From a virus (lineage: Duplodnaviria; Heunggongvirae; Uroviricota; Caudoviricetes): 34,243 nucleotides of DNA. The position numbers and the translations under genes were made by a program. Each line of letters starts with the position of its first letter. Positions within the stretch are counted from its first letter, which is position 1. The notes under the pieces are model-generated. The model did not search any database and was not told where the DNA came from. It saw only the letters and a program-made list of their open reading frames with translations. Location of the stretch: IMG/VR virus record IMGVR_UViG_2859810971_000006, positions 1-34,243 of that record, one strand, 5' to 3'. Of this stretch, positions 10,680 to 33,002 are shown one piece after another.

Positions 10680-11864
10680 TTATTTCTGTATTCTCACTGC
10701 CATTCTTTTTTGCACATCAAAAAATTTATTAATCACTCCATTGCGATTAATAAATGGATATTCTATACCTTTAAAAGTCATATAAGCGATAGTCACAACA
10801 ATTGGCGACAACATCAGAATTAAATATGCGTATGAATTATCACTCAAATTTCGCACATACGCCTTCCCGAGTAAAACATCTAAAGTAAAATATAGAACAA
10901 TCCCGTGCATTAGATAGATACTATATGATATCTCACCAAAGACTCTGGAGATTTTCAACTTTAACACACCAAATAGATCACATCCATTTACGATCAAAAT
11001 AAATATAGCACCGTTCAATAAAATTGGCAGGTAATCAAACGAGTGAGGGAAGTAAAAAAACGAAAAAACGAAACCTGAAATACACAAAAACGATGTCAAT
11101 TTCAAAGATGCAACTTTTAAGATTAATTTATTACCTCGTACTGCTGAAGCTAAAAAGCCACAGGCGAATGGCAGTAAAAAGATGTAATTTAAGTTGAGGT
11201 AATTAAACGCATATAAGCTAAATGCCGGGATAACTAGCATAAAGATATTTTTAGTTCTTCTCAAAGCAAATGCAATGAGCGGTAGAGAAAAATAGAATAA
11301 CCATTCATACACAAGCGTCCAATAAATACCAGCATATATATAACCAGTATCACTAAATCCATTTATATGTGAATTACCATAAGTTGCATATATCATCCAT
11401 GAAAGAATGGATTCAATTAGTTCACCTGCACTTACATTGAGTTTCCAGCCTGTTTTATATCCTATGATAAATAATGCAATTAAAAGCGAGAACATATACA
11501 GAGGATATATTCTAAAAATTCTTGATTTGTACAACGAGAACCAATTTATTTTTTTTGAATCAATTATTTTAGAAAAAAACAAAAACCCCGTTATCATAAA
11601 GAAAATCATAACGGGTAATTGCCCTGCATTCGCAAATACATGACTTGAAGGTAAAGACCATTCATTTGTTTTTATAAAGTGATGCCATATATAAGAGTGA
11701 TGCAGAAACACTAAGAAGGCCAAATACCCTCTCAATCCATCAATATTAACGTTCCTACCTTTACCTTCAATTGGTAGCGGACTTATTTTATCAAGAAAAT
11801 ACAATATGGCGATAGCTGCAAATATAGCAGCTACTATTAACATAGGGCTATTATAAATTAACAT
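10680..11864 (-). CDS. Acyltransferase-3 family integral membrane protein (O-antigen/LPS acetyltransferase-like), prophage cargo in the Z/fun position
   Basis: 394 aa, about ten hydrophobic segments; N-terminal DGLRGYLAFLVFLHHS and MIFFMITGFLFFSK motifs typical of the family; visibly AT-rich coding sequence, unlike the flanking tail genes. Confidence 0.8.
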   Translation of the reverse strand: MLIYNSPMLIVAAIFAAIAILYFLDKISPLPIEGKGRNVNIDGLRGYLAFLVFLHHSYIWHHFIKTNEWSLPSSHVFANAGQLPVMIFFMITGFLFFSKIIDSKKINWFSLYKSRIFRIYPLYMFSLLIALFIIGYKTGWKLNVSAGELIESILSWMIYATYGNSHINGFSDTGYIYAGIYWTLVYEWLFYFSLPLIAFALRRTKNIFMLVIPAFSLYAFNYLNLNYIFLLPFACGFLASAVRGNKLILKVASLKLTSFLCISGFVFSFFYFPHSFDYLPILLNGAIFILIVNGCDLFGVLKLKISRVFGEISYSIYLMHGIVLYFTLDVLLGKAYVRNLSDNSYAYLILMLSPIVVTIAYMTFKGIEYPFINRNGVINKFFDVQKRMAVRIQK

Positions 11865-12523: not shown

Positions 12524-14212
12524 ACAATTACAATGCCTGCCATCCCTGCACCTCCAGCACGTTGCTGTGTCGCGCCGCCGTAAACACAGGCACCGCCACC
12601 ACCGCCACCTGGTCCATTAGCATTAATTCCTTCTCCGACAATGGCCTGTGAACCCGCGCCCTCACCCAGAACAGAACTGCCACCAGGTCCTCCCATTGCC
12701 AGCAATCCTGAATAGCGAACACCTGGCATGGTATAGCCACTGCCACTGCCAAAAATATTCGCCCCGTGAATCCAAGTGTGTATGCACCAGCAGGCCCTAC
12801 AACGGCTATATTATTACCCTCTGTCATTACAGCTCCACCCAACCCCCCTTTTGCGGTAACAACGTCACCAAATGCTGAACTTCCCCCTGTCGCCCCCGGC
12901 ATTGCACTGGCTCCCGTTCCTCCGTACCCAACGGTAACCGTTGTTACTACCGGATGGTCTATGCGGGCTTTAACGTATTCTCCCGACATTCCCCCTCCGC
13001 CGCAGGCAGCATTGCCCCTGTACCGACCTGGCATCCGCCGCCAGCGCCACCACCGCCAACCACTTCAACAATCGCAAACTTTATACCTGCAGTTGGCGTA
13101 TATATCCCGGAGGCTTTGAACACCTGACATTTTACCAGTCGGCCTGTTCCGTCGCCAAGCCCAAGGTATGTGAGAAGACCAGCTACATCCTTTCCACTCA
13201 AATTAGTCAGCGTATTATCCAGCGGTTGTTTTCCCGCCAGTGCATTAAGCATTGTCGTGGCAAAGTTCGGGTCATTCCCTAGCGCCGCCGCCAGTTCGTT
13301 CAGCGTATCCAGTGCCGCAGGTGCAGAACCCACCATTGCCGCAATTGCCGATTTCACAAAAGCCGTGGTGGCAATCTGTGTATTGTTGACCGACTGCTCC
13401 GCCGTGGGGGCTGTTGGCGTTCCAGTGAGTGCCGGACTCGACAGCGGCGCTTTCAGTGCCAGCGCATTGTTAATGGTGGTACTGAATTTCGGGTCATTGT
13501 TTATGGCTGCGGCAATTTCTTTCAGCGTGTCCAGCGTGGCTGGCGCACCATTAATAAGGGCCGTCAGTGCCGCCTGTACAAACGCAGTGGTCGCAACCTG
13601 CGTGGTATTATTCCCCGCCGCTGGCGTTGGCGCTTTGGGGATTCCGGTAAATGTCGGGCTGGCTTTTGGCGCGTACTGTGAATGCGGGTCCGGTGCGGCA
13701 AGATGTTTTGCCATCTGATCATCCGCGTACACCTTCAGCTCCAGTGCCTTGTCATCCACATACTTGCGGGTTGCCAGCACTACAGCAGGGTCGATTTTCA
13801 GGGTGATATTGTCCGTGCTGCTGGTAATCAGCACCATGCGCACGGTCTGAGTGCGCCCGCTACCTTCAGCCAGTTGCGGCTTATAGCTTTCCGGGCAGTT
13901 GCCCACGGCAATCAATGCCCCGGACTCATCAAACAAGCCCACTTCACGTATCCACCAACCGCCCTCGTTTTCAGGGATCACCTGTTCGGCAATAATCTGG
14001 CTGCTGTTCTGCGGGTCGATATAGAGCATATTCAGCGCAGCCCGGCGTTTCTCATTTACCAGTGCAGTCTGCTTTGAGTCTGGCGTTGGCAATACTCCGC
14101 CGCCATCGCCCACCGCCATATGGGTAATTTTTAGCGGCACACCGAGCGCGGCGGCGCTGGCAAGTTTCGACGCGCCAATATCCGTCAGCAGGGTATAAAA
14201 TTTTGTGCTCAT
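12508..14212 (-). pseudogene. H: Tail fibre gene H, reading frame broken at two points (three frame segments)
   Basis: P2 H-like N-terminus (MSTKFYTLLTDIGASKLASAAALGVPLKITHMAVGDGGG...) runs 14212-12959. Plausible Gly-rich fibre sequence continues in a second frame (12790-13034) and a third (12508-12729, ending ...MAGIVIVWEYA). Confidence 0.55.
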
Positions 14213-29277: not shown

Positions 29278-29781
29278 TTACTGATAGTGTTTTATGTTCA
29301 GATAATGCCCGATGACCTTGTCATGCAGCTCCACCGATTTTGAGAACGACAGTGACTTCCGTCCCAGCCTTGCCAGATGTTGTCTCAGATTCAGATTATG
29401 TCGCTCAATGCGCTGAGTGTAACGCTTGCTGATAACGTGCAGCTTTCCCTTCAGGCGTGATTCATACAGCGGCCAGCCATCCGTCATCCATACCACGACC
29501 TCAAAGGCCGACAGCAGGCTCAGAAGACGCTCCAGTGTGGCCAGAGTGCGTTCACCGAAGACGTGCGCCACAACCGTCCTCCGTATCCTGTCATACGCGT
29601 AAAACAGCCAGCGCTGACGTGATTTAGCACCGACGTAGCCCCAATGTTCGTCCATTTCAGCGCAGACAATCACATCACTGCCCGGTTGTATGCGCGAGGT
29701 TACCGACTGCGGCCTGAGTTTTTTAAGTGACGTAAAACCGTGTTGAGGCCAACGCCCATAATGCGTGCACTGGCACGACAT
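29278..29781 (-). CDS. insB: IS1 InsB (expressed as the InsAB' transposase by -1 frameshift at A6C)
   Basis: 167 aa; A6C frameshift motif in the insA/insB overlap (plus strand gtttttt at 29718-29724). Confidence 0.95.
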
Positions 29782-29975
29782 CCGACGCCATTCATGGCCA
29801 TATCAATGATTTTCTGGTGCGTACCGGGCTGAGAGGCGGTGTAAGTGAACTGTAGTTGCCATGTTTTACGGCAATGAGAGCAGAGATAGCGCTGATGTCC
29901 GGCAGTGCTTTTGCCGTTACGCACCACGCCTTCAGTAGCGGAGCAGGAAGGACATCTGATGGAAATGGAAGCCAC
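29700..29975 (-). CDS. insA: IS1 InsA
   Basis: 91 aa, Cys-rich N-terminus (CPSCSAT...CSHCRK). Confidence 0.95.
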
Positions 29976-30127
29976 GCAAGCACCTTAAAATCACCATCAT
30001 ACACTAAATCAGTAAGTTGGCAGCATTACCCGCAATGTGATTAAGTCCATTCAGGCGTTCACCGGGGCTTAATGGAACAGTCGCCGCAGCGCCATTAATT
30101 GCCATAATTCATATCCCCAAAACGCAA

Positions 30128-30367
30128 CTATCGTTCTTTGTTCTTACGGTAACGTTCAAGAGGAGATACATTTTTTCGTATCGTCTCTTTAACCTGCTCT
30201 CCCCGTAAAAACGTCCCATCCTTTAGCGTGAAAAAGTAACTGCCATCGCCCGACAACGACGGATAACAACAGAGCAAATCATCTTCAGGTACTGAATAAC
30301 TCTCCCCTCTGTAACGAAACTGATAAACCACTTCACTTTCCGCTGCATACATTTTGACTTTCTCCAT
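30128..30367 (-). CDS. Hypothetical early-region protein
   Basis: 79-aa ORF; the internal ATG at 30352 has a GGAGAAAG Shine-Dalgarno; overlaps the 3' part of the upstream ORF out of frame. Confidence 0.35.
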   Translation of the reverse strand: MEKVKMYAAESEVVYQFRYRGESYSVPEDDLLCCYPSLSGDGSYFFTLKDGTFLRGEQVKETIRKNVSPLERYRKNKER

Positions 30368-30549
30368 TTCCCCGTGGTCAATTCAGACAGCAATTCATCT
30401 TGTGAACGGCACGGATGCCAGCGTTTACCATCCTCACCCATGATCCAGCCGTGACCGTAGTGCATTGCCGGGCTTTGTTTTACCAGCAGCGATGCAAATG
30501 ATGGTTCTTTCGTCAGCATAAGCACCTCACAGCAAACCGAATGAAGCAC
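30223..30549 (-). CDS. Hypothetical early-region protein (3' part overlaps the next ORF)
   Basis: 108-aa ORF immediately after the cII-like gene; overlaps 30223-30367 with the next ORF in another frame. Confidence 0.3.
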   Translation of the reverse strand: MLHSVCCEVLMLTKEPSFASLLVKQSPAMHYGHGWIMGEDGKRWHPCRSQDELLSELTTGKWRKSKCMQRKVKWFISFVTEGRVIQYLKMICSVVIRRCRAMAVTFSR

Positions 30550-31031
30550 CGAGGCCAGTCACGGTATCAACTGCACTCGCCATCGCAGGATTAGCCTGTA
30601 AACGGGCCTGCAATGAAACAGCCGCCAGCGCCATCAGTCGTGTTACAGAGTTAATGCTGCTGATAGCATCACGACGACCTGCACTGGTTTTTACATCGCC
30701 AGATACCGCACCTGCAGCAACACGCCCGATCTCTGCGGTTGCACTCATGACGTAATGTGGCAGTTTCTCTTTTGCTACCTCATTAATCGGTACACATGGC
30801 AGACAATGAATCTGTGCCAGAAAACCATCTACCAACGTTGAATCTTCAGTCAGATCGGTAAGCAGCCAGATTTCTGGTGCGGTTAATAAATGAGGTTGAG
30901 CTGGGTTCAGCTTGTTCCGCAGAATCTGCACATTTATGCCCGCACGTTCTGCCAGTTGCACCAGATTGTGGCGCAGTGCGAATGCACGACAGGCTTCATC
31001 AAAATGTGGATGTTTGGAAACTTGGTAATCA
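30527..31031 (-). pseudogene. CII-like helix-turn-helix regulator, split from its start codon by IS1 copy 2
   Basis: Removing IS1 and one copy of the duplication restores ATG TTT GAT TAC CAA GTT... ([12 protein letters not shown]..., about 169 aa) with a GGAG Shine-Dalgarno at 31800-31825; the insertion is after codon 4. Helix-turn-helix-like [19 protein letters not shown]. Confidence 0.5.
31024..31031. repeat. Target-site duplication (left) of IS1 copy 2
   Basis: ggtaatca immediately outside the left IS1 end. Confidence 0.7.
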
Positions 31032-31046
31032 GGTAATGACTCCAAC

Positions 31047-31550
31047 TTACTGATAGTGTTTTATGTTCAGATAATGCCCGATGACCTTGTCATGCAGCTC
31101 CACCGATTTTGAGAACGACAGTGACTTCCGTCCCAGCCTTGCCAGATGTTGTCTCAGATTCAGATTATGTCGCTCAATGCGCTGAGTGTAACGCTTGCTG
31201 ATAACGTGCAGCTTTCCCTTCAGGCGTGATTCATACAGCGGCCAGCCATCCGTCATCCATACCACGACCTCAAAGGCCGACAGCAGGCTCAGAAGACGCT
31301 CCAGTGTGGCCAGAGTGCGTTCACCGAAGACGTGCGCCACAACCGTCCTCCGTATCCTGTCATACGCGTAAAACAGCCAGCGCTGACGTGATTTAGCACC
31401 GACGTAGCCCCAATGTTCGTCCATTTCAGCGCAGACAATCACATCACTGCCCGGTTGTATGCGCGAGGTTACCGACTGCGGCCTGAGTTTTTTAAGTGAC
31501 GTAAAACCGTGTTGAGGCCAACGCCCATAATGCGTGCACTGGCGCGACAT
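31047..31550 (-). CDS. insB: IS1 InsB
   Basis: 167 aa; one residue different from copy 1. Confidence 0.95.
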
Positions 31551-31744
31551 CCGACGCCATTCATGGCCATATCAATGATTTTCTGGTGCGTACCGGGCTG
31601 AGAGGCGGTGTAAGTGAACTGTAGTTGCCATGTTTTACGGCAATGAGAGCAGAGATAGCGCTGATGTCCGGCAGTGCTTTTGCCGTTACGCACCACGCCT
31701 TCAGTAGCGGAGCAGGAAGGACATCTGATGGAAATGGAAGCCAC
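31469..31744 (-). CDS. insA: IS1 InsA
   Basis: Identical 91-aa product to copy 1. Confidence 0.95.
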
Positions 31745-31799
31745 GCAAGCACCTTAAAATCACCATCATACACTAAATCAGTAAGTTGGCAGCATTACC

Positions 31800-31807
31800 G
31801 GTAATCA
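31800..31807. repeat. Target-site duplication (right) of IS1 copy 2
   Basis: ggtaatca immediately outside the right IS1 end. Confidence 0.7.
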
Positions 31808-31876
31808 AACATGGTTTTCAACTCCGAACTTATCGCAAAATCGAACTCAGCGTCTTATTGCGAAAATAGACGTCTA

Positions 31877-32080
31877 TTAAGCAGACAAAGCATCAACAGT
31901 CAGAGCAGCCAGGTTAATCATTACCTTTTCACGTTTTTTGTCTTTACGAAGACGATGACGAGGTAGTCGGCCATCAGCCAACATGTCGTTAATCGTATCA
32001 ATAGAAAGGCCAGTCAGTTCGCTATAACGTTCGATTGTGACATGTGGTGTATTCAGAGTAATTGAAATGTTAGGTGTCAT
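31877..32080 (-). CDS. Apl/Cox-like small helix-turn-helix protein (first lytic-operon gene; excisionase/switch repressor candidate)
   Basis: 67 aa; helix-turn-helix-like ERYSELTGLSIDTINDMLADGRLP and a basic tail; divergent from cI and directly upstream of the cII-like gene, as apl is in 186. Confidence 0.5.
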   Translation of the reverse strand: MTPNISITLNTPHVTIERYSELTGLSIDTINDMLADGRLPRHRLRKDKKREKVMINLAALTVDALSA

Positions 32081-32225
32081 AAGGCAACATTCCTTCTAGA
32101 TATGGCTTGTGGCGAGCCGTTGTTTGTCGTGATTAGTAGTAAAGGCTCCAAAAGAACACTTCTGGTTCAACTTTAAGATCGCTTTTGGAATCTGTCAACG
32201 AATTTTGGATTTCTTTGGAGGACTT

Positions 32226-32795
32226 GTGGATTTCAATAGCGGCGGTAAGAAAGCCATAGAACGTTTAGTTGAAGCATATGAGTTCGGTACTCGTCAGGCT
32301 CTCTGTGATCATTTAGGTGTTTCTAAGAGCACCATGGCAACGCGCTATATGCGTGATATTTTTCCAGCAGATTGGGTAATCCAGTGCGCCCTTGAAACGG
32401 GCACCTCGCTTAATTGGCTAACAACAGGGCATGGTTCAAAGCAAGCATCAGCAAATACAAATACTATAGAAGTAGAAAAATATTTATTGTCTGATGGAGC
32501 ATTGCAGAAAGACGGTTTTTATATTTTTGATAAGGGATTTCTACCCTCTACGTTTAAAAAACCTTTTGTCATCACAGATAACAATTCTGAATTTATTTGT
32601 GATAAAGAATTTGATGATATACGTGATGGTAAATGGGTAATAAGTATTGATGGCGAAATAACGATCCGTGACATTACTCGTTTACCCGGTGGAAGAATCT
32701 TCGTCGAGGGTGGAAACAGAGCCTTCGAATGCAAGATAGAAGACATTGAAATAATTGGTAAAATTATAAGTTTAACAGTCAAGTATGTTAAATAG
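32226..32795 (+). CDS. cI: 186-type CI immunity repressor
   Basis: About 189 aa from the GTG at 32226 (GGAGGA Shine-Dalgarno), or 196 aa from the TTG at 32205; N-terminal helix-turn-helix (QALCDHLGVSKSTMATRYM) plus a C-terminal domain; AT-rich; lies between the lytic genes and int. Confidence 0.65.
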   Translation: MDFNSGGKKAIERLVEAYEFGTRQALCDHLGVSKSTMATRYMRDIFPADWVIQCALETGTSLNWLTTGHGSKQASANTNTIEVEKYLLSDGALQKDGFYIFDKGFLPSTFKKPFVITDNNSEFICDKEFDDIRDGKWVISIDGEITIRDITRLPGGRIFVEGGNRAFECKIEDIEIIGKIISLTVKYVK

Positions 32796-32810
32796 TACCG
32801 GGAGGAAACT

Positions 32811-33002
32811 ATGCTTGGTAAGGTATTTTTTGTGGTTTTGTCATGTTCTTTGTTATTAAACCCACTAACTACCTATGCTAGAAATTATCCCTGCTCAGGG
32901 AAAAAGGGAGGTGTTTCTCACTGTACCTCAGATGGCAAATTCGTTTGCAATGATGGAACTATTAGTAAATCCAAAAAAATCTGTACTAAAAACTCACGAT
33001 AA
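32811..33002 (+). CDS. Small secreted cysteine-rich protein (lysogeny-operon cargo candidate)
   Basis: 63 aa; GGGAGG Shine-Dalgarno; signal-peptide-like N-terminus ([19 protein letters not shown]); mature part of about 40 aa with 4 Cys; AT-rich. Confidence 0.5.

What the first reader, a model, noticed from the sequence alone, without database searches (positions are those of the whole stretch)
31024..31812. IS1 copy 2 is a simple insertion that separates the cII-like gene from its start codon
IS1 is flanked by an 8-bp direct repeat (GGTAATCA). Removing it and one repeat copy restores a Shine-Dalgarno, ATG and codons 2-4 (MFDY...) continuous with the 30527-31031 ORF. The insertion therefore uncouples the establishment regulator from the lytic promoter just downstream of the apl/cox-like gene; the ORF track shows a TTG inside IS1 in frame with the gene. 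This is a recent, datable event that likely locks or cripples the lysis-lysogeny circuitry.
Basis: seen in the sequence. Interest (0 to 1): 0.55.

Follow-up and report, generated by a model that had tools for sequence, protein, structure and literature searches.

The report
IS1 splits prophage cII and its operator
A 768-bp IS1 jumping gene has landed in the first few codons of the lysogeny-establishment gene cII of a 186-like prophage. The same hit splits the DNA site that CII must bind, but this is ordinary decay of an already damaged prophage.

Summary
IS1 copy 2 occupies 31032..31799 (768 bp, minus orientation) and is flanked by an exact 8-bp duplication, GGTAATCA. Removing it and one repeat copy gives a sequence that matches other E. 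coli prophages as one ungapped piece at up to 99.7% identity. It restores a 169-aa CII (Pfam Phage_CP76; 69% identical to phage 186 CII).

The same inverted heptamers, ATGTTTG-N13-CAAACAT, are present here and are conserved in 11 diverse relatives. IS1 sits in the spacer and moves the two half-sites 776 bp apart. One event therefore removes the gene's start and breaks its target.

CII and pE act only when lysogeny is being established, so "locks the circuitry" is overstated and "datable" is unsupported. For a resident prophage, the effect that could matter is polarity on the early lytic operon, which is inferred.

The prophage has other damage. A second IS1 lacks a duplication and sits at a 1.5-kb deletion. 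The portal gene has a nonsense codon and the tail-fibre gene has frameshifts. The insertion was found in only one public assembly. Interest is low.

The parts
31032..31799 (-). IS1 copy 2, 768 bp. insA runs 31744->31469 and insB' 31550->31047, with the A6C frameshift motif intact. IRL lies at the 31799 end and IRR at the 31032 end, so the element is co-oriented with pR->cox/apl->cII transcription.
   Evidence: It differs from copy 1 at a single nucleotide.
31024..31031 (.). Left copy of the 8-bp target-site duplication GGTAATCA.
   Evidence: The sequence occurs once in the empty site of E. coli C51 (L001 6494..6501).
31800..31807 (.). Right copy of the 8-bp target-site duplication GGTAATCA.
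30527..31031 (-). Body of the 186-type cII gene, from nucleotide 6 of the CDS to the stop codon, cut off from its start.
   Evidence: The rebuilt 169-aa protein hits Pfam Phage_CP76 at 1.2e-41 and PHROG 101 'CII-like transcriptional activator' at 3.4e-55. It is 69% identical to 186 CII with no gaps.
31795..31812 (-). Orphaned cII start: ATG at 31812..31810 plus codons 2-4. It now forms a 5-codon mini-ORF, MFDYR*, closed by a TAA made from the terminal GGTAAT of IS1. The Shine-Dalgarno GGAG lies upstream at 31821..31824.
   Evidence: Read directly from the sequence.
31806..31812 (.). Promoter-proximal CII half-site (CAAACAT on the + strand, ATGTTTG on the cII strand). It stays attached to pE and the cI side.
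   Evidence: Identical to the annotated CII site of 186 at 23435..23462. Conserved in 12 of 12 aligned phages with at most one change.
31010..31016 (.). Promoter-distal CII half-site (ATGTTTG on the + strand). It now lies 796 bp, centre to centre, from its partner instead of 20 bp.
   Evidence: The half-sites are centred at -38 and -58 of pE in 186 (PMC6593788).
31043..31045 (-). TTG inside IRR of IS1, one nucleotide after the insB' stop codon and in frame with the cII body. It gives the 172-aa [14 protein letters not shown]... (30527..31045).
   Evidence: A gene with this product was called on the source assembly. I see no Shine-Dalgarno sequence, and no promoter-like site was found at the junction.
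31877..32080 (-). Cox/Apl-like excisionase-repressor gene (67 aa), the first gene of the pR operon and upstream of IS1.
   Evidence: PHROG 575 at 1e-29. It occupies the position that apl has in 186.
32170..32198 (-). pR-like promoter, TTGACA-17-TAAAGT, pointing at cox/apl, IS1 and the cII remnant.
   Evidence: Consensus scan, 10 of 12 matches. The position agrees with the 186 layout. Inferred, not shown.
32226..32795 (+). 186-type CI repressor gene (189 aa from the GTG start).
   Evidence: Pfam Phage_CI_repr at 2.7e-30 and Phage_CI_C at 3.6e-29. Annotated as CI in relatives.
29263..30030 (-). IS1 copy 1, in the same orientation and with no target duplication. It sits where 1,528 bp present in the C51 prophage are missing: the 5' part of dam, the DUF3850, TraR/DksA and DUF2732 genes, and most of the DUF5347 gene.

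Best explanation
A functional-looking IS1 transposed once, by simple insertion with an 8-bp staggered cut, into nucleotides 6-13 of the cII gene of a 186/P2-like (Peduoviridae) prophage. The prophage is integrated between ybjL and rcdA. In this phage group the first 27-28 bp of cII serve two purposes. They encode codons 1-9, and they are the CII operator of pE, the leftward establishment promoter. The operator is a pair of inverted heptamers, ATGTTTG-N13-CAAACAT, centred at -38 and -58 of pE.

The insertion has three consequences.
(a) The cII body is cut from its ribosome-binding site and ATG. The old start now makes only MFDYR*. The sole in-frame start left is a TTG inside IS1, with no Shine-Dalgarno sequence and no promoter-like site.
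(b) The two operator half-sites are pushed 776 bp apart. The CII oligomer that needs both half-sites at a two-turn spacing can no longer bind, so pE cannot be activated even by CII supplied in trans.
(c) A 768-bp IS now lies in the pR early lytic operon, between cox/apl and fil...dam-A. This is expected to be polar on the downstream replication gene A.

Shown here: the structure of the event, the empty site, and the identity and conservation of the operator. Inferred from 186 biology: loss of CII binding and pE activation, and polarity.

Because CII and pE act only during establishment, the resident prophage should stay repressed by CI made from pL. The lesion is most simply read as neutral decay in an IS1-rich genome.
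For: Structure: exact IS1 ends and the 8-bp duplication. The flanks overlap by exactly 8 bp on the uninterrupted C51 prophage. The rebuilt site matches as one piece at 99.7% identity, and 487 genomes cover at least 80% of it. All 80 IMG/VR relatives encode CII residues 1-169 contiguously. IS1 is reported to make 8- or 9-bp duplications (PMC12428005).

Gene identity: Phage_CP76 at 1.2e-41. The protein is 69% identical to 186 CII over 169 aa with no gaps.

Operator: the 186 GenBank record annotates CII binding at 23435..23462, which is the first 28 bp of cII, and pE at 23400..23462. The window has the same heptamers at the same spacing. Across 12 phages whose CII identity to this one falls as low as 36%, the half-sites show 96% and 95% column identity against 73% in the spacer. 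The wobble bases of codons 8-9 are invariant, while those of codons 10-15 vary freely. PMC6593788 states that CII binds an inverted repeat two helical turns apart at -38 and -58, and that basal pE activity is negligible.

No rescue: no promoter-like site was found at the IS1-to-cII junction. By eye, the IS1 ends offer no substitute half-site at the right spacing (1 of 7 and 3 of 7 matches; read).

Context of decay.
Against: No expression or binding data exist for this prophage. The pE -10 element could not be mapped with confidence. The region between cox/apl and cII is immunity-specific and aligns poorly with 186. The best candidate, CAAAAT at 31836..31841, lies 23 nt from the half-site, against 19-21 nt in relatives.

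The claim that changing the half-site spacing abolishes CII binding rests on my memory of Shearwin and Egan 2000 (J Biol Chem 275:29113). That paper is not in the held library.

The 186 record notes that terminators in the early operon are anti-terminated during lytic growth. IS1 polarity might therefore be partly overcome.

Read-through from pR or from IS1's own promoter, followed by reinitiation at the TTG one nucleotide after the insB' stop, could still yield a trace of near-full-length CII.
Confidence: 0.85

Rival explanations
1. Adaptive grounding. The insertion was selected because it disables the phage's regulatory and lytic programme. That would fix in the host a prophage carrying a useful cargo gene, the O-antigen-type acyltransferase at 10680..11864.
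For: The prophage carries an Acyl_transf_3 cargo gene that is 39% identical to OacB of Shigella phage Sf101. IS1 sits in the early lytic operon upstream of replication gene A. The prophage shows several further inactivating lesions.
Against: CII and pE are dispensable for maintenance and induction, so hitting them gives no grounding. Only polarity could, and that is untested. Multiple independent lesions are what neutral decay predicts. The insertion was found in a single assembly, so there is no sign of recurrence or spread. IS1 load is high in this background, with two copies within 2.5 kb.
Confidence: 0.08
2. CII function is retained. The TTG inside IS1 starts a 172-aa CII variant (MESLPDY replacing MFDY), transcribed by read-through from pR or from the IS1 promoter. 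The regulator would then survive, possibly with altered control.
For: The in-frame TTG ORF is 30527..31045. A gene with this product was called on the source assembly. The Pfam domain starts at residue 10, so it is intact. The TTG lies one nucleotide after the insB' stop, so termination-reinitiation is conceivable. IS1 is co-oriented with pR, and upstream transcription is known to run into IS1 (PMC12428005).
Against: I see no Shine-Dalgarno sequence before the TTG, and no promoter-like site lies at the junction. InsB' is translated only after a rare frameshift, so coupling would be very weak. 186 CII is very unstable, with a half-life of 2.6 min (PMC6593788). Even if the protein were made, its operator at this prophage's pE is split, so it could not act in cis.
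Confidence: 0.05
3. It is not a simple insertion. The arrangement would be an assembly artefact or a product of recombination between IS1 copies, and the 8-bp repeat would be coincidental.
For: A second IS1 only 1 kb away lacks a duplication and marks a deletion, so IS1-mediated rearrangement has occurred nearby. IS copies are a classic source of misassembly.
Against: The 8-bp repeat is exact and abuts both IS1 termini. The flanks are collinear with the empty site and overlap it by exactly those 8 bp. Recombination between IS1 copies would leave unlike flanks, as seen at copy 1. The source is a 4.53-Mb chromosome-scale contig.
Confidence: 0.02

Closest known systems
Phage 186 cII / pE establishment module (Eganvirus, Peduoviridae)
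   Same: The gene order is the same: int, cI, then convergent pL and pR, cox/apl, cII, fil. CII is 169 aa and 69% identical. The CII operator heptamers ATGTTTG and CAAACAT are identical, share the 13-bp spacer, and overlap cII codons 1-9.
   Different: The immunity region (cI, operators, cox/apl) is a different type. The excisionase-repressor is 67 aa and falls in PHROG 575, whereas 186 Apl is 87 aa (264-bp CDS). The region between cox/apl and cII aligns poorly. Here the module is interrupted by IS1.
186 mutants unable to establish lysogeny (cII and pE mutations; Shearwin and Egan 2000, cited from memory and via PMC6593788)
   Same: The predicted phenotype is the same: loss of CII-activated pE transcription of cI and int, with the lytic and maintenance functions themselves untouched.
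   Different: Those are point mutations or small spacing changes that affect either the protein or the promoter. Here one 776-bp insertion affects both at once and adds a potentially polar element to the pR operon.
IS1 (IS1 family) simple insertions, including polar IS1 insertions in phage early operons such as lambda r14 in cII (the lambda example is from memory and was not verified here)
   Same: The element is 768 bp with about 23-bp imperfect inverted repeats, insA and insB' with the A6C frameshift site, and an 8-bp target duplication. The target resembles the IS1 end (GGTAATCA against GGTAATGA).
   Different: Nothing differs mechanistically. The InsA sequence ([11 protein letters not shown]...) differs at several residues from the K-12 IS1 sequence as I recall it. 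The 8-bp duplication is the less common of the two lengths reported (PMC12428005).
IS1-truncated remnant of a related prophage in E. coli B-1109 (NZ_CP117971)
   Same: A related 186-like prophage at the neighbouring chromosomal site has an IS1 that truncates dam. This resembles IS1 copy 1 in the window.
   Different: It is an independent event with different breakpoints. In that strain cII and its start are intact.

Membership tests
IS1 (IS1 family insertion sequence) | Length of about 768 bp with imperfect terminal inverted repeats of about 23 bp that begin GGTAATG or GGTGATG | tested here: met
   31032..31799 is 768 bp. The inverted repeats match at 18 of the first 23 positions.
IS1 (IS1 family insertion sequence) | insA (zinc ribbon plus HTH) followed by insB' (DDE) in the -1 frame, with an A6C slippery site | tested here: met
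   PF03811 and PF12759 on the 91-aa ORF. PF03400 at 1.1e-73 on the 167-aa ORF. NF033558 matches both halves. TTAAAAAAC is present on the minus strand at about 31491..31499.
IS1 (IS1 family insertion sequence) | Target-site duplication of 8 or 9 bp on simple insertion | tested here: met
   An exact 8-bp GGTAATCA lies on both sides and occurs once in the empty site. The 8- or 9-bp range is stated in PMC12428005.
186-type CII activator (Pfam PF06892, Phage_CP76) | Full-length match to the family profile and to 186 CII | tested here: met
   1.2e-41, profile positions 1-146 of 146. 116 of 169 residues identical to 186 CII with no gaps. PHROG 101 at 3.4e-55.
186-type CII activator (Pfam PF06892, Phage_CP76) | Intact, translatable gene downstream of cox/apl in the pR operon | tested here: not met
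   The start codon, Shine-Dalgarno sequence and codons 2-4 are separated from the body by IS1. The gene here is a pseudogene.
186-type pE establishment promoter with CII operator | Inverted heptamers ATGTTTG and CAAACAT, 20 bp centre to centre, overlapping the start of cII | tested here: met
   Present in the rebuilt sequence and identical to the annotated 186 site. Conserved in 12 diverse phages, including at wobble positions. In the window as it stands the spacing is destroyed.
186-type pE establishment promoter with CII operator | CII-dependent transcription towards cI and int | not testable with these tools
   This needs reporter or binding assays. The -10 element is only tentatively placed (CAAAAT, 31836..31841).
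P2/186-like prophage (Peduoviridae) | GPA replication endonuclease, Cox-like protein, CI (Phage_CI_repr), tyrosine integrase, and P2-type tail and head genes in the canonical order | tested here: met
   Phage_GPA at 7e-128. Also. ORF sizes are collinear with the annotated C51 prophage.

The most novel reading that the evidence does not exclude
IS1 copy 2 lies directly downstream of, and co-oriented with, the CI-repressed lytic promoter pR. Its transposase reading frame could therefore be transcribed by read-through whenever the prophage repressor is inactivated. That would make this copy a prophage-induction-responsive (possibly SOS-responsive) IS1 donor, coupling bursts of IS1 transposition to the phage switch. 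A related reading is that the insertion was selected to ground a prophage that carries an acyltransferase.
Probability: 0.08. Interest if true: 0.45.

Novelty: new member of a known kind. Interest (0 to 1): 0.2.

Why it matters
The finding mainly helps annotation. The gene called as a 172-aa "CII" on the source assembly is a decapitated pseudogene fused to IS1 sequence, and the prophage should be scored as defective.

It also illustrates a general point. In 186-like phages the activator gene and its own operator overlap, so one insertion knocks out both the trans-acting and the cis-acting halves of the establishment circuit. The comparison of 12 phages gives independent, sequence-only support that this overlapping operator is conserved far beyond phage 186, down to 36% CII identity (Aeromonas and Salinivibrio phages).

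Nothing here changes current understanding of IS1 or of the 186 switch.

Tried and rejected
1. I looked for the same insertion elsewhere. A 3.7-kb query and a 140-bp junction query against 5,426 complete E. coli genomes found no place covering at least 80% of either query. Exact junction patterns found nothing in the GTDB species representatives or in JGI metagenomes. An exact-protein look-up found only one contig, CP026810.1. Draft assemblies usually break at IS1 copies, so absence there is weak evidence.

2. The best partial hit (H66, E. coli B-1109) looked as if it might share the IS1-cII layout. It is a different, independent IS1 truncation of dam with an intact cII.

3. I tried to read the primary 186 CII papers: Murchland 2014, Neufing 2001, and Shearwin and Egan 2000. 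None is held. I relied on PMC6593788 and the GenBank annotation of 186, and I marked the spacing-sensitivity claim as coming from memory.

4. A literature search for the lambda r14 IS1-in-cII precedent and one for the accession CP026810 returned nothing useful.

5. I looked for a hybrid outward promoter at either IS1 junction. None reached the scan threshold. By eye, TTGGCA-18-CATGGT on the cI side scores only 8 of 12.

6. A 9-bp duplication was considered and rejected, because the bases next to the repeat differ from the empty site.

7. A whole-window BLAST against the 40-kb C51 locus could not be run, because L004 never appeared in the script sandbox. Targeted alignments were used instead.

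8. The source organism could not be named with these tools. Shigella is only a guess, based on the genome size and the IS1 load.

Full report
**1. What is in the sequence**

The window holds two IS1 copies in the same (minus) orientation, at 29263..30030 and 31032..31799. Each is exactly 768 bp, and they differ at one base.

Copy 2 has the expected imperfect terminal inverted repeats, GGTAATGACTCCAACTTACTGAT and GGTAATGCTGCCAACTTACTGAT. It has an InsA ORF (91 aa; PF03811 and PF12759) and an InsB' ORF (PF03400, 1.1e-73; NCBIfam IS1 transposase on both halves), and the TTAAAAAAC slippery site is present. The octamer GGTAATCA lies immediately outside both ends, at 31024..31031 and 31800..31807.

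**2. Is it a simple insertion into a real gene?**

Deleting IS1 and one repeat copy gives GGAGTTGAAAACC-ATG-TTT-GAT-TAC-CAA..., a 169-aa ORF beginning [19 protein letters not shown]. A 1002-bp rebuilt sequence centred on the site matches E. coli chromosomes as a single ungapped piece at 100% coverage and up to 99.7% identity. There it is annotated [quoted passage not shown], and 487 genomes cover at least 80% of it.

I then compared the window directly with the best such prophage, in E. coli C51 (locus L001).
- Window 30030..31031 aligns to L001 5500..6501, and window 31800..33000 aligns to L001 6494..7694.
- The two flanks therefore overlap by exactly the 8 bp that are duplicated.
- The bases next to the repeat rule out a 9-bp duplication.
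- IS1 is reported to make 8- or 9-bp duplications (PMC12428005).

All 80 IMG/VR loci recovered with the rebuilt protein encode residues 1-169 contiguously.

The protein is a 186-type CII:
- Pfam Phage_CP76 at 1.2e-41 over the full profile.
- PHROG 101 "CII-like transcriptional activator".
- 116 of 169 residues identical to phage 186 CII, with no gaps.

The reconstruction is not a coincidence.

**3. Surroundings**

Right of IS1 lie several elements:
- A 67-aa Cox-like excisionase-repressor gene at 31877..32080 on the minus strand (PHROG 575, 1e-29).
- A pR-like promoter, TTGACA-17-TAAAGT, at 32198->32170, pointing towards that gene.
- A 186-type CI gene at 32226..32795 (Phage_CI_repr and Phage_CI_C).
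- A tyrosine integrase gene that runs to the window end.

Left of the cII body are fil (Phage_186_Fil), a PHROG 4312 ORF, and then IS1 copy 1.

This is the 186 layout: int, cI, then convergent pL and pR, apl, cII, fil (186 GenBank annotation). The window as a whole is a P2/186-like prophage inserted between ybjL and rcdA, as in strain C51.

**4.

The annotated 186 record places the CII-binding site at 23435..23462, which is the first 28 bp of cII. It places the leftward establishment promoter pE at 23400..23462. [quoted passage not shown] It also states that basal pE activity is negligible, and that CII-activated pE supplies the cI transcript needed to establish lysogeny.

The rebuilt window sequence reads ATGTTTG-ATTACCAAGTTTC-CAAACAT. 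Both heptamers and the 13-bp spacer length are identical to 186 (ATGTTTG-ATTTTCAGGTTTC-CAAACAT), even though the upstream immunity region is unalignable.

I aligned this region from 12 phages: the rebuilt window sequence, 186, and 10 others. Their CII proteins range from 89% down to 36% identity to this one. They include SopEPhi, Yersinia, Klebsiella and Salmonella phages, an ESSI2 phage, and Salinivibrio and Aeromonas phages.
- The two heptamers show 96% and 95% mean column identity, against 73% in the spacer and 83% in the next 24 nt.
- The third positions of codons 8 and 9 (AAA CAT) are invariant in 12 of 12, while those of codons 10-15 vary freely.
- The heptamers are kept even where the encoded residues differ, as in the Aeromonas (MFISGDCKH) and Salinivibrio (MCEFRQLKH) phages.

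This pattern points to selection on the DNA itself, so the operator is a family feature.

IS1 sits inside the spacer. The duplicated 8 bp comprise six spacer bases (positions 8-13, counting from the distal half-site on the + strand) and the first two bases of the promoter-proximal heptamer.
- After insertion, the proximal half-site (31806..31812) stays with pE and the cI side.
- The distal half-site (31010..31016) lies 776 bp further away than before.
- At the positions where a partner heptamer would be needed, the IS1 ends offer GTTGGCA (1 of 7 matches) and CAGGTAA (3 of 7 matches, two of them from the duplication), as read.

If the 186 geometry holds, everything upstream of about -47 of pE is now IS1 sequence.

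**5. Most likely consequences**

Shown by the sequence:
- The cII body has lost its Shine-Dalgarno sequence and ATG.
- The old ATG now opens MFDYR*, closed by a TAA formed from the terminal GGTAAT of IS1.
- The only in-frame start is the TTG at 31045, one nucleotide after the insB' stop. I see no Shine-Dalgarno sequence before it, and no promoter-like site lies at the junction.

Inferred:
- CII can no longer bind or activate this prophage's pE, even if supplied in trans by a related phage. The protein needs both half-sites at a two-turn spacing. My recollection is that Shearwin and Egan 2000 found that changes of 5 or 10 bp abolish binding, but I could not read that paper.
- The IS is probably polar on the pR operon downstream (fil ... 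dam'-A), because translation stops at the IS boundary. The 186 record notes that terminators in this operon are anti-terminated during lytic growth, so polarity may be incomplete.
- IS1 is co-oriented with pR, and upstream transcription has been shown to raise IS1 transposase transcription and transposition (PMC12428005). Derepression of pR could therefore feed into insAB'. This is speculative.

What the insertion does not do is lock the switch through CII. CII and pE are establishment functions, and a resident prophage is maintained by CI made from pL (PMC6593788).

**6. The prophage is decaying anyway**

- IS1 copy 1 has unlike flanks...AAATGCGCG on one side and CGCAATGTG... on the other. 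It replaces 1,528 bp that are present in C51 (L001 3973..5500). The lost DNA covers the 5' 438 bp of dam, the DUF3850, TraR/DksA and DUF2732 genes, and most of the DUF5347 gene. This is the signature of an IS1-mediated adjacent deletion or of recombination between two IS1 copies. It contrasts with the clean insertion of copy 2.
- The portal gene carries a CAA->TAA nonsense codon at about 24852..24854.
- The tail-fibre gene has two 1-nt deletions relative to an otherwise 99.8% identical E. coli prophage in which it is intact. These could be long-read sequencing errors.

**7. Distribution and age**

The fusion ORF is on record in one assembly only, GCA_002949455.1 (CP026810.1, 4.53 Mb). Neither junction occurs in the following collections:
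- 5,426 complete E. coli genomes.
- GTDB species representatives.
- JGI metagenomes.

The flanks are 99.8% identical to C51. The event is therefore lineage-restricted and probably recent, but nothing here dates it.

**8. Comparison with what is known, and verdict**

Every component belongs to a well-described family: IS1, 186-type CII, the pE operator, and a Peduoviridae prophage. The membership table gives the individual tests. IS insertion into prophage regulatory genes is routine in IS-rich enterobacterial genomes.

The one instructive detail is that the activator gene and its own operator overlap, so a single insertion removes both the trans-acting and the cis-acting halves of the establishment circuit.

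The novelty is that of one more instance of a known kind, and interest is low (0.2).

Noticed in passing
window 29263..30030, flanks 29254..29262 and 30031..30039: IS1 copy 1 has no target duplication. It sits where 1,528 bp present in the E. coli C51 prophage are missing: the 5' part of dam, the DUF3850, TraR/DksA and DUF2732 genes, and most of the DUF5347 gene. This indicates an IS1-mediated adjacent deletion or recombination between two IS1 copies. The remaining 117-aa dam fragment still overlaps the start of replication gene A.
   Followed up: yes
window about 24420..25460 (+), stop at about 24852..24854: The portal gene is split by a CAA->TAA nonsense codon relative to the C51 portal (ORFs 24417..24854 and 24909..25460). 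The prophage should be unable to make particles, whatever the effect of IS1.
   Followed up: yes
window 12528..14212 (-), about 12761 and about 13014: The tail-fibre gene is broken into 417-aa and 168-aa ORFs by two 1-nt deletions. The comparison is with an otherwise 99.8% identical prophage in E. coli 2018-05-5CC, where the gene is intact (1707 bp). The deletions could be genuine frameshifts or long-read homopolymer errors.
   Followed up: partly
window 10680..11864 (-): A 394-aa Acyl_transf_3 protein (PF01757, 3.2e-26) lies as cargo between the tail-sheath and tail-fibre-assembly genes. It is 39% identical to O-acyltransferase B of Shigella flexneri phage Sf101. It is a likely O-antigen-modifying moron. 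The same cargo was found in only 2 of 5,426 complete E. coli genomes.
   Followed up: partly
window 31795..31812 (-): The orphaned cII start codon now heads a 5-codon ORF, MFDYR*. Its stop codon is created by the terminal GGTAAT of IS1.
   Followed up: yes
window 31024..31031 compared with 31032..31039: The target octamer GGTAATCA matches the adjoining IS1 terminus GGTAATGA at 7 of 8 positions. This fits the old observation, recalled from memory, that IS1 favours targets resembling its own ends.
   Followed up: no
L005 (E. coli B-1109, NZ_CP117971.1 3519489..3520539): An independent IS1A insertion truncates dam in a related 186-like prophage remnant next to mdfA. The region from dam to the early operon of these prophages may be a repeated site of IS1-associated erosion.
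   Followed up: partly
window 30128..30549 (-): The fil ORF here (98-108 aa) is longer than 186 Fil (228-bp CDS, 75 aa). It overlaps a PHROG 4312 ORF (30128..30367) in another frame. In C51, fil is annotated as a partial pseudogene. The fil region seems unstable among close relatives.
   Followed up: no
alignment A1 (cII starts of 12 Peduoviridae phages): Salmonella phage SW9 is the only one of the 12 with both heptamers altered (ATGTTAG ... GTCACAT). This may reflect co-variation of the operator with its CII specificity.
   Followed up: no
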